Origin: Octopus vulgaris
Taxonomy: Eukaryota
NCBI GenBank assembly: GCA_951406725.2
Contig: OX597825.1
Coordinates: 22,382,001-22,446,000 of the forward strand
DNA: 64,000 nucleotides
Direction: 5' to 3'
The notes under the pieces are model-generated. The model saw only the letters and a list, made by a program, of their open reading frames with translations. It searched no databases and was not told where the DNA came from. A program made the translations under genes and the position numbers. Of the stretch, positions 7,131-53,636 are shown piece after piece. Each line of letters starts with the position of its first letter. Within the stretch, counting starts at the first letter, position 1.

Positions 7131-7329
7131 AGGTGTGTGTGTATGTATACACGAGTGTTTGTGTCTTGTGTTTCTGCCATACTGTAACCTAGTATTTCGG
7201 CAATAAAAATCGATAGAACAAGTACTAGATTTACAAATAAATCCTGGGGCCTATTTCATGTCTAAACCTCACAAGATTATTTACATTATTTCCATTTGAA
7301 GGATATTTATCCTCATCTTGTTTGTTGTT

Positions 7330-7375
7330 AACACAACGTTTCGGCTGATATACGCTCCCGGTTTCATCAGGTGTC
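7330..7375 (-). ncRNA. Minimal type-I hammerhead ribozyme motif (stem II partly mutated)
   Basis: rc GACAC CTGATGA A accgg gagcgtatat CAGCC GAAAC GTT GTGTT: stem I GACAC/GTGTT, intact core, loop-less palindromic stem III AACGTT. Confidence 0.7.
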
Positions 7376-7675
7376 TTGGGGAAATTACGAATACGGGTTC
7401 TCATTCCTAAGGTATTTTTCGATGTTGATGTTGTTGTTGTTGTTATTGTTATTGTTGTTGTTGTTGTTGTATTTATTCAGTTCACTATCTGGAATTAAAC
7501 TCGGAAACTTGGGGGTAGCAGTCCGCGCTCTAAACCACTGAACTATATGCCCATGGGAATGTGACGTAGGGTTTAAGAGCGCAGGCTAATAACCCCAAGA
7601 TTCCGAGTTCGATTTCAAGCAGTGACTTGAACAACAAAAGCAAGAACAACAACAACAACAATAATAATAATAATG

Positions 7676-7737
<62 letters not shown>

Positions 7738-7786
7738 CATCGAAAAATACCTCAGGAATGAGAATACAGGTTCGAAATTACCCCAA

Positions 7787-7832
7787 GATACCTGATGAAG
7801 GCTGGAGGGTATATCAGACGAAATATTGTGCG
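7787..7832 (+). ncRNA. Minimal hammerhead motif, decayed copy
   Basis: gatac CTGATGA A GGCTG gagggtatat CAGAC GAAAT ATT GTG; stem III changed from AACGTT to AATATT. Confidence 0.55.
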
Positions 7833-8094
7833 AACAACAAACAAGATGAGGACAAATATCAGTCAACTCTAAAAAATGTAAATAATGTACGTAATTCATA
7901 TCTCTTAAATATAGAACTGTAAACCTCACAAGGCAGTGTCCTAAAACGGCCCCTGTCCAATAAGTAAAAGAAGTAAACAGGTTTTTAAATAAATGAATAA
8001 CAACCCTGTCACACACTGCAACGAAACGGTCCTAAGCGACTAACAACTCCTCTTAGTCAGCATCCTTGATTTGTATGGTTTTTATCTGTTTTAA

Positions 8095-8425
8095 TTGGCT
8101 CAGTGGTTAGAGCGTCGAGCTTACGATCGTGAGGTTGTGAGCTCGAATCCCGGACCGGGCTGCGTGTTGTGTTCTTGAGCAAGGCACTTTATTTCACGTT
8201 GCTCCAGTTCACTCAGCTGTAGAAATGAGTTGCGACGTCACTGGTGCCAAGCTGTATCGACCTTTGTCTTTCCCTTGGATAACACTGGTGGCGTGGAGAG
8301 GGGAGGCTGGTATGCATGGGCGACTGCTGGTCTTCCATAAACAACCTTGCCCGGACTTGTGTCTAGGAGGGTAACTTTCTAGGTGCAATCCCATGGTCAT
8401 TCATGACCGAAGGGGGTCTTTACCC
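8095..8425 (+). mobile_element. tRNA-derived CORE-like SINE with TSD
   Basis: tggctcagtgg A box, gctcgaatcc B box, cttgagcaaggcac; tttaattggc duplicated at 8090-8099 and 8426-8435; a related tail lies on the minus strand at about 25260-25390. Confidence 0.85.
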
Positions 8426-44015: not shown

Positions 44016-44639
44016 CTGCTGCTGATATTCATTTAAGTGTTACACATTGTCATTCTACGATATTTCCGTTATTGTTCTTGTTATTGCTGTTGTTGATGAT
44101 ATTATTGTAATTAAAGTCACTTCTGGTTGTACCGCGTCAATGGCTGCTGGTAATGCTGATGTTAATATTGCTGAGGTTTGTTAAACAGTTTACGCTAGAA
44201 AAGTGGGAAACACTGAGGAATTTTCTCATTAAACGATGCGAAAGTCATTCTCTGACGTCAGCAAATTCTTTGACATTTAAGTTATGGTTATGCACGCATG
44301 TATTTTCCTTTATGCACAACAATATATTCATAGGAATGCATATTGCATACATGCATACATGCAAATGTACATACATACGTACATGCAAATATACATACAT
44401 ACATGCATACATACATACATAGATACAGACGCACAGACACACAGACACACATCAACACACACATATAGATAGATAAATAGATAGATAGATTCATATATAT
44501 ATAGAGAGAGAGAGAGCCAGACAGACAGACGAGAGAGAGAGAGTGAAAGAGAGAGAAATAGACAGGCAGACACACAGATACACAGATAGATAGGTAAACA
44601 GAGAGGTATATAGATAGACAGATAGACAGGTAGACAGCC

Positions 44640-52761: not shown

Positions 52762-52859
52762 ATAGTTTTCCTTTTTGGTAAAACATTGCCGTCTAGATTA
52801 AGTTATAGTATGGACATTAGGGATTCGCTAAAACATCCGGATTATGCCTGTCAAGCGGT

Positions 52860-52912
52860 CCGTACTGATGAGGCTATTGAATCAGCCAAAACACTGGCCA
52901 ATCAATGTACGG
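52860..52912 (+). ncRNA. Hammerhead-like motif with G-to-A change in the GAAA box
   Basis: CCGTA CTGATGA GGCT attgaatc AGCC AAAAC actggccaatcaatg TACGG; stems I and II pair perfectly, stem III unclear. Confidence 0.5.
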
Positions 52913-52975
52913 AATTCTTGACCGCTGCCAGTACATATGTATACAATTGTGTGTTTTAACTACAGCATTAGAGCT

Positions 52976-53089
52976 TTTTAACCACTACCCCATATGCCCG
53001 TGGGCATATGGCGTATTGGTTAAGAACGCGGGCTACTAACTCCAAGATTCCGAGTTCGGTTCTAAGCAGTCAACTGAACCATAATAATG

Positions 53090-53150
<61 letters not shown>

Positions 53151-53324
53151 TAACAATAATATCGAAAAATACCTTAGGAATAAGAACCCAGGATCTAAAT
53201 TTCCCCAAGACACCTGATGAAGGCTGGAGGATATATCAGCTGAAATGATGTGCTAACAGCAAACAAGATGAGGACAAATGTAAATAATGTAAATAATTCC
53301 TCGTTTCTTAATTATAGAACTGTA
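52976..53324 (+). mobile_element. Second tRNA-head / (AAT)n / hammerhead-tail element with short inverted 5' arm
   Basis: ttaaccactaccccatatgccc-gt-gggcatatggcgtattggttaa; A box, anticodon arm gggCTACTAActc, B box gagttcggttc; HHR remnant 53209-53254; same 3' end atagaactgt as the 7.9 kb copy; flanks tagagctttttaa / tagagctcttaa. Confidence 0.85.
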
Positions 53325-53636
53325 TAGAGCTCTTAATTTAAGGATTTCTAATAGAATGTATATATATATATTCTGTTCGTGATACATGTATGATTCTGTT
53401 CACGAAATTGTGACAGTAAACTGGAATAAAGCATGAAACCATAAATGTATAATTAACTAGGTTATGGAACCGCCGTCTCGTAGCCGTATTCTCTGTTGAG
53501 ATCAACATCATATTTTTTTTTTCATATTGTATCTCTATTGTCATAATGATTTAAGATTCGATTCGAACTCACATCCTCACGATCGTAAGCTCGACACTCT
53601 AGCCACTGAGCCATGCACCTTCACTATATATATATA

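What the first reader, a model, noticed from the sequence alone, without database searches (positions are those of the whole stretch)
52969..53336. Same spacer-less inversion junction at an independent locus suggests snap-back synthesis
Seen: the junction is atatgccc-gt-gggcatat here and atatgccc-at-gggaatgt at 7550, exactly at the first base of the tRNA-like head. The left arm is about 25 bp here and about 280 bp at 7.3 kb, while both right arms end at atagaactgt. The target flank tagagctcttaa resembles the element's own cgcgctcttaa. Inference: the RT reaches the RNA 5' end, folds back and copies its own cDNA for a variable distance, then joins the target through microhomology.
Basis: partly seen in the sequence, partly recalled or inferred. 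Interest (0 to 1): 0.72.

Follow-up and report, generated by a model that had tools for sequence, protein, structure and literature searches.

The report
Head-to-head Penelope ends, primed twice
Both junctions are back-to-back end repeats of a common Penelope-type jumping gene, turning at a small palindrome built into the element; in most such copies the two outer ends are the element's two fixed ends inside one target duplication, so each insertion was likely started from both cut DNA strands rather than by one copy folding back on itself.

Summary
In detail: both junctions, the arm lengths and the 8-nt target microhomology are as described, and the exact junction occurs 510 times in the genome (control 0). 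The element is the terminal repeat (pLTR) of a protein-coding Penelope/Poseidon-type retrotransposon: tRNA-like head, (AAT)n, minimal hammerhead, optional 31-bp tail. The palindrome core and 2-nt centre (TGCCC-AC-GGGCA) are already in ORF-linked copies. Whole-arm snap-back fails for most loci: 74 of 83 two-armed insertions have one tailed and one tail-less outer end, 47 of 74 within one TSD of 9 bp or more, and in 26 of 55 the presumed copy carries a tail its presumed template lacks. The 7.3-kb left arm stops at the fixed tail-less end. Variation lies inside: a 9-40-nt head piece joined by microhomology to a second 3' piece. Best model: two cDNAs, one per nicked strand, joined at the palindrome; a short fold-back step stays possible, and the 53-kb locus is a minority head-only type. 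Inverted pLTRs, tails, junction palindromes and self-priming are published for Penelope elements. This scan already reported the family elsewhere in this genome.

The parts
52969..52981 (+). Left copy of the target-site duplication (TAGAGCTTTTTAA; one substitution and one extra T against the right copy); its inner part overlaps the element head by microhomology
   Evidence: a paralogous flank repeat continues GCTCTTA at 52980 in loose ends of other runs
52978..52999 (-). Short inverted arm: head positions 1-22 only, no 3' part
   Evidence: 20/22 identical to the right head
53000..53001 (.). 2-nt centre GT = reverse complement of the element's own AC in TGCCC-AC-GGGCA
53002..53076 (+). tRNA-like head of the pLTR (consensus box A at 8-18, box B at 53-61; box B decayed in this copy)
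   Evidence: (Rfam tRNA 10.8 bits, below the 29 cut-off)
53077..53160 (+). (AAT)n/(AAC)n microsatellite inside the pLTR
53161..53291 (+). pLTR body, up to the tail-less terminus
53208..53254 (+). Minimal type I hammerhead motif (CTGATGA 53214-53220, stem II, GAAA 53242-53245); GAAAC-GTT decayed to GAAAT-GAT in this copy
   Evidence: descriptor on the family consensus; not matched by Rfam
53292..53322 (+). 31-bp optional tail ending ATAGAACTG
53325..53336 (+). Right copy of the target-site duplication (TAGAGCTCTTAA)
7263..7275 (+). Second locus: left TSD copy TAAACCTCACAAG
7276..7552 (-). Second locus: complete inverted pLTR ending at the fixed tail-less terminus
7553..7554 (.). Second locus: centre AT (likely CpG decay of AC or GT)
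   Evidence: 26 of 100 ORF-linked sites also read AT
7555..7919 (+). Second locus: complete pLTR with tail (about 7889-7919)
7920..7932 (+). Second locus: right TSD copy TAAACCTCACAAG

Best explanation
These are head-to-head terminal repeats (pLTRs) of an endonuclease-bearing Penelope/Poseidon-type retrotransposon that were likely inserted by priming reverse transcription on both strands of a staggered cut, with the two cDNAs likely joined at a palindrome built into the element's 5' end. Steps: (1) shown: the unit is the pLTR of an RT + GIY-YIG element and TGCCC-AC-GGGCA straddles its head; (2) inferred: most RNAs start about 3-7 nt before the head, probably from the internal tRNA-type promoter; (3) inferred from outer ends and TSDs: the endonuclease cuts both strands about 11-13 bp apart and each 3' end primes a cDNA, one at the tail site and one at the tail-less site; (4) inferred: a cDNA that reaches the RNA end finishes in GT-GGG(CA), which can pair with TGCCC on the partner cDNA or on itself; a short extension then joins a truncated partner by microhomology; (5) at 53 kb no second 3' piece is present, and the 22-nt head piece joined the target through 8 nt of microhomology.
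For: ORF end runs straight into the head at 406 exact sites and in 17 of 90 heads sampled without regard to their upstream sequence; 569-aa frame with RVT_1 (E 2.7e-6, just under the curated cut-off) and VYSIPYSCGRLYKGET; tail continues into the ORF 5' part in L198 and L220. Outer ends opposite in 46 of 51 loci (Fisher 7.5e-9) and 74 of 83 pooled non-redundant loci. TSD of 10 bp or more in 26 of 51 against 3 of 1070 mismatched flank pairs; modal 11-13 bp. The tail falls on the AC-bearing arm in 25 and on the other arm in 26 of 55 loci. ORF-bearing copies with no palindromic centre also pair a tail-less main end with a tailed inverted end in 5 of 5 classifiable cases among 26 loci (matches of 15, 12, 8, 7, 6 bp at the ends). 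Inner joints: 3-nt or longer microhomology in 14 of 25 against 3.7%. In vitro, the anole PLE cleaves and extends both strands, uses two start sites that bracket the tail and is predicted to be a dimer (PMC11167929).
Against: No intermediate was observed; everything mechanistic comes from old copies about 5% from consensus. Up to 29 of 89 palindromic loci, like the 53-kb one, have a head-only arm with no second 3' end, and only 3 of 20 testable ones show a TSD of 9 bp or more. With one arm shortened, the centre is AC 35: GT 19, not the 1:1 expected from symmetric annealing (binomial p 0.04), so an asymmetric, fold-back-like route likely contributes. Arms of one locus share more variants than arms of different loci (0.45 against 0.15 per 100 sites), which fits one template as well as one subfamily. 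9 of 83 loci have like ends. The RNA start and Pol III use were not measured.
Confidence: 0.75

Rival explanations
1. One reading: the RT reaches the RNA 5' end, folds back, copies its own cDNA for a variable distance and joins the target by microhomology; this makes the whole left arm.
For: Fixed junction; head-only arms with TSD and microhomology at 53 kb, L261, L302, L305; AC excess 35:19; small excess of shared variants; L006 duplicates flank sequence on both sides, as a run-through copy would.
Against: 74 of 83 two-armed loci have opposite fixed outer ends; 26 of 55 have a tail only on the presumed copy; left arms usually lack the middle, not the 3' end (47 of 89 are short head + jump to a 3' piece); inverted tailed arms also occur at ORF truncation points with no palindrome; 53-kb centre is GT.
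Confidence: 0.1
2. Both arms were inserted complete (two full cDNAs annealed at the palindrome); short or gapped arms are later deletions in an unstable spacer-less palindrome, and GT/AC flips are mismatch repair or later inversion of the spacer.
For: Gaps lie next to the apex and show microhomology; both centre orientations occur; long perfect palindromes are unstable (general knowledge, recalled).
Against: Complete double arms persist (13 of 89, and the 7.3-kb locus); the AC excess over 1:1; GT also occurs with only 2-bp arms (L037, L016), too short for later hairpin inversion; by hand tally, GT does not rise with arm length (2/12, 9/18, 8/24).
Confidence: 0.1
3. A separate tRNA-derived SINE that borrows Penelope enzymes, or two independent insertions into each other.
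For: 73 of 90 sampled heads have no ORF upstream; tRNA-like boxes A and B.
Against: The same head is joined to the ORF end at 406 exact sites, so it belongs to the coding element's repeat; one TSD encloses both arms. Solo copies may still propagate SINE-like; not tested.
Confidence: 0.05

Closest known systems
Inverted-pLTR insertions of EN+ Penelope-like elements: Adineta vaga Pen2a/Pen2/Pen3a (PMC3846280, passages read); overview in PMC8557442 (passages and Fig. 2 legend read)
   Same: [quoted passage not shown]
   Different: Here most units have no ORF, the pLTR starts with a tRNA-like head, and the end asymmetry can be counted over dozens of loci. Arkhipova et al. argue for self-priming on an antisense template; these data favour two primed ends.
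PAc, Poseidon of Anolis carolinensis (PMC11167929, parts 1-2 of 4 read)
   Same: C-terminal GIY-YIG, hammerhead in the pLTR, two RT start sites that bracket the tail, both target strands cleaved and extended, AT-rich targets.
   Different: That paper does not explain inverted junctions in the parts read; no tRNA-like head is described there.
L1 twin priming (Ostertag and Kazazian 2001, seen only as a citation and description in PMC10191854 passages)
   Same: Second target strand primes a second cDNA; inverted arrangement inside one TSD; microhomology at the joint.
   Different: In L1 the second primer lands internally (recalled) and the arms do not duplicate each other; here both cDNAs start at the element's 3' start sites, so the same sequence appears twice, head to head.
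Minimal hammerheads of metazoan PLE pLTRs (PMC4209133, part 1 of 4 and passages read)
   Same: Unpaired base before stem II, G-C closing pair, palindromic minimal helix III, short stem I; dual motifs on opposite strands 100-700 bp apart are mentioned there.
   Different: No mollusc or tRNA head is mentioned in that text (term search).

Membership tests
EN+ Penelope-like element (Penelope/Poseidon type) | Single ORF with RT and C-terminal GIY-YIG endonuclease | tested here: met
   569-aa frame in L190: RVT_1 E 2.7e-6, 27.7 bits against cut-off 29.6; VYSIPYSCGRLYKGET at 461 (GIY-YIG reading recalled; no Pfam GIY-YIG hit); a 226-aa piece gave no Pfam hit
EN+ Penelope-like element (Penelope/Poseidon type) | pLTR follows the ORF and its tail overlaps the ORF start (partial tandem) | tested here: met
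   406 exact ORF-end/head junctions; tail runs into the ORF 5' region in L198 and L220 of 25 loci
EN+ Penelope-like element (Penelope/Poseidon type) | Inverted 5' copy, 30-40-bp tail on one end only, TSD around the unit | tested here: met
   74 of 83; 31-bp tail; TSD modal 11-13 bp
EN+ Penelope-like element (Penelope/Poseidon type) | Minimal hammerhead in the pLTR | tested here: met
   Descriptor fits the consensus with 6-bp stem II and 5-bp stem I; core intact in 33 of 65 right arms. No Rfam hammerhead match; cleavage not tested
EN+ Penelope-like element (Penelope/Poseidon type) | RT phylogeny within Penelope/Poseidon rather than Neptune or Nematis | not tested
   No reference PLE proteins were fetched; the clade label rests on domain order and recalled motifs
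tRNA-derived SINE | tRNA-related head with boxes A and B | tested here: inconclusive
   Boxes match consensus; Rfam tRNA is the only hit but at 10.8 bits, E 9.7; ARAGORN finds none
tRNA-derived SINE | Independent of a coding element's own sequence at its 5' end | tested here: not met
   Head is contiguous with the ORF end in 17 of 90 sampled heads and 406 exact sites
tRNA-derived SINE | Pol III transcription from the head | not testable with these tools
   Only contigs, no raw reads, were offered
Whole-arm fold-back (snap-back) insertion | Inverted arm is a sub-copy of the primary arm with a variable outer end | tested here: not met
   Fixed opposite outer ends in 74 of 83; tail on the non-native arm only in 26 of 55
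Whole-arm fold-back (snap-back) insertion | Arms near-identical in young copies | tested here: inconclusive
   Arm-arm divergence 8.8% against 9.4% for shuffled pairs; 17 shared against 337 differing sites in 40 loci; no young copies in the sample

The most novel reading that the evidence does not exclude
Each Penelope insertion uses its two RT start sites one per target strand, as a dimer would, and in this family a tRNA-type Pol III promoter starts the RNA inside a built-in palindrome whose G-T-mismatched annealing (or short fold-back) stitches the two cDNAs together. This would explain the tail-on-one-end rule and the head-to-head junction in one mechanism, with the AC/GT centre recording which cDNA reached the end.
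Probability: 0.5. Interest if true: 0.6.

Novelty: new member of a known kind. Interest (0 to 1): 0.33.

Why it matters
How Penelope elements make their tandem and inverted ends is called undefined in PMC8557442, and PMC11167929 leaves the steps after priming unvalidated. A high-copy family with a fixed, asymmetric 2-nt centre and two fixed ends turns that question into counts, and the counts favour two-ended priming over whole-arm fold-back or antisense self-priming. The structure itself is a known signature, and the family and its tRNA-like head were already flagged by this scan, so this finding adds a test, not a new system.

Tried and rejected
Rfam on the locus and on four loci gave only chance matches; on a consensus-like hammerhead region no hammerhead model matched. 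ARAGORN found no tRNA. Folding of head and hammerhead regions gave no significant z-score (-1.3 to +1.0). The repeat finder was swamped by microsatellites. No RNA holder listed and only contigs were offered, so no transcription start could be read; laying four runs' contigs on 52780-53078 showed family coverage over the junction but no piece spanning this locus: not used as evidence. PDB sequence search gave only weak RT matches (best E 0.014). The arm-identity test lacks power because sampled copies are about 5% from consensus. Chance and scattered junctions were rejected; separate TSDs per arm were rejected. Literature searches; no paper listed there describes a tRNA head in a PLE pLTR or a count of tail/tail-less end pairing, judged from listings and the passages read; Repbase/Dfam and non-open papers were not searchable. 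PMC13282606 passages (octopus repeat annotation) do not mention this structure; its supplements were not read. bioRxiv 10.64898/2026.07.22.740005 (part 1 of 5) concerns tandem retrozymes; bioRxiv 10.1101/2024.08.27.596794 (term search) was not relevant.

Full report
Observation. These are the only two full copies in the window. The 53-kb left arm is head positions 1-22; the 7.3-kb left arm is 277 bp. Each unit lies inside one target duplication: TAGAGCT(C/TT)TTAA at 53 kb, whose inner 8 nt equal head positions 19-26, and a perfect 13-mer at 7.3 kb. The window lies in a 2.8-Gb animal genome (G000; octopus-like by recalled repeat style, not tested). The exact 20-nt junction pattern has 510 sites and its reversed control none; of the first 50 listed, the centre is AC/GT in 29, AT in 19, other in 2 (hand tally).

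What the element is. I sampled 90 of the first 100 of 358 exact heads, chosen without regard to upstream sequence (last 10 rows not fetched). Upstream lay an inverted arm in 52, the end of a coding region in 17, other flank in 21. The coding region is an RT followed by a GIY-YIG-type motif: a 569-aa frame in L190 matches RVT_1 at E 2.7e-6, slightly under the curated score, and holds VYSIPYSCGRLYKGET. It runs directly into CATAATTGCCC-NN-GGGCATATGG at 406 exact sites; the first 100 centres are AC 64, AT 26, AA 4, CA 3, GT 1, GC 1, AG 1 (hand tally). So the palindrome TGCCC-AC-GGGCA and its centre belong to the element, and AT is what CpG decay gives. In L198 and L220, of 25 loci, the tail continues into the 5' part of the ORF. 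The repeat holds boxes A and B, an (AAT)n tract, a minimal hammerhead and a 31-bp optional tail. This is the pLTR of an endonuclease-bearing Penelope-like element. The tRNA origin of the head is only weakly scored.

Junction: fixed. In the 21 heads with plain flank, the native upstream bases are kept at -1 to -3 in 14, 14 and 16, at -4 in 10, and fall towards background after about -6; 73 of 90 heads lose the ORF-end context within a few bases. This suggests an RNA 5' end or strong stop inside the palindrome (inference). Outer ends: in the first 51 two-armed loci (unbiased set, 49 of the 50 junction sites, and the window) 46 had one tailed and one tail-less end (TT 3, TN 28, NT 18, NN 2; Fisher 7.5e-9), and 26 had a TSD of 10 bp or more against 3 of 1070 mismatched flank pairs. 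Adding 89 loci from 92 of the first 100 rows (7 AT rows and 1 TT row not fetched) and removing duplicates gave 99 two-armed loci, 83 classifiable (16 dropped for an unclear end), 74 with opposite ends, 47 of these with a TSD of 9 bp or more, against 2 of the 9 like-ended loci. Where the centre is informative, the arm bearing the native AC is tail-less with a tailed partner in 26, tailed with a tail-less partner in 25, like-ended in 4, of 55. An arm cannot copy a tail from a cDNA that lacks it. ORF-bearing copies whose inverted arm joins a truncation point, with no palindrome, pair the ends the same way in 5 of 5 classifiable cases among 26 loci; end matches were 15, 12, 8, 7 and 6 bp.

Where the variation is. 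Among the 89 loci with one intact head and at least 9 bp of palindrome, the other arm is complete in 13, a short head joined to a later piece in 44 (47 after three tail remnants were recognised), and head-only in at most 29 (two or three more show body remnants by eye). Head pieces are 9-40 nt, mostly 24 or less. Inner joints have 3 nt or more of microhomology in 14 of 25 measurable cases against 3.7% expected. Head-only arms with a clear TSD are few: 3 of 20 testable, plus the 53-kb locus. With one arm shortened the centre reads AC in 35 and GT in 19, against 64 and 1 in ORF-linked copies (Fisher 5e-7) and against 1:1 (p 0.04). Simple fold-back of the long arm predicts AC only; symmetric annealing of two cDNA ends predicts 1:1; the data look like a mixture. 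A caveat: RNA from the GT side of an older head-to-head copy would give GT under fold-back too. Arm identity does not decide: 17 shared and 337 differing sites in 40 loci, sharing 0.45 against 0.15 per 100 in 2000 shuffles, divergence 8.8% against 9.4%; the 7.3-kb arms differ at 17 of 112 sites and share none. Two subfamily markers are concordant more often than chance but are discordant in 4 of 7 and 3 of 6 carrier loci.

How it likely works. The endonuclease cuts both strands about 11-13 bp apart; each 3' end primes a cDNA, one at the tail site, one at the tail-less site; a cDNA reaching the RNA end finishes in the palindrome and pairs with its partner, or folds back briefly and then joins a truncated partner or, rarely, the target by microhomology. 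The identity, ends, TSDs and microhomologies are shown; the order of events is inferred.

Comparison with what is known. Inverted pLTRs, a tail at one end, a TSD around the unit and palindromes at inverted junctions are described for Adineta Penelopes, with self-priming proposed (PMC3846280, passages) and as general PLE traits with an undefined cause (PMC8557442, passages). The anole PLE cleaves and extends both strands and starts at two sites that bracket the tail (PMC11167929, parts 1-2 of 4). Minimal hammerheads in pLTRs, including pairs on opposite strands, are in PMC4209133 (part 1 and passages). L1 twin priming is the nearest mechanistic analogue (PMC10191854 passages). I found no paper with a tRNA head in a PLE pLTR or a count of end pairing in searches; Repbase was not available. 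Eight earlier notes of this scan describe this family on other DNA of this genome (read after my reading was formed); six agree, two call it a SINE, which the ORF-linked heads argue against. Nothing was noted near this window.

Verdict. Real feature, known kind; the proposed mechanism is partly right. Interest 0.33.

Noticed in passing
window 52929-52980: The left flank of the 53-kb insertion is itself a repeat; other runs' contigs continue it with GCTCTTATTTCTAGC, which supports the TSD reading.
   Followed up: partly
window 8095-8200 (+) and about 53560-53615 (-): Pieces of another tRNA-like SINE head lie a few hundred bases from both insertions.
   Followed up: no
window 44061-44124 (-): Weak (72%, E 5e-4) match to the end of the head plus microsatellite; possibly an old fragment of the family.
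   Followed up: partly
L030, L031, L033, L054, L057 (upstream 45 nt of the head); L249, L304, L307, L308: Complex junctions with repeated head fragments or several turns at the palindrome; L030 includes CCTAACCCTAA, a telomere-like stretch. Suggests iterative template switching at the joint.
   Followed up: no
L006 around 1510: Both arms end tail-less and are followed by the same flank for over 100 bp in inverted orientation, a possible true run-through fold-back.
   Followed up: no
G000:C2:16238319-16238940: Four ORF-end/head junctions with centre AA at 150-300-bp spacing: a local tandem array of the junction.
   Followed up: no
L021, L041, L084, L129 (junction to head): Four inverted arms without the palindrome join the head at the same GGTGTCTTG|GGG point, a microhomology hot spot just before the hammerhead.
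   Followed up: partly
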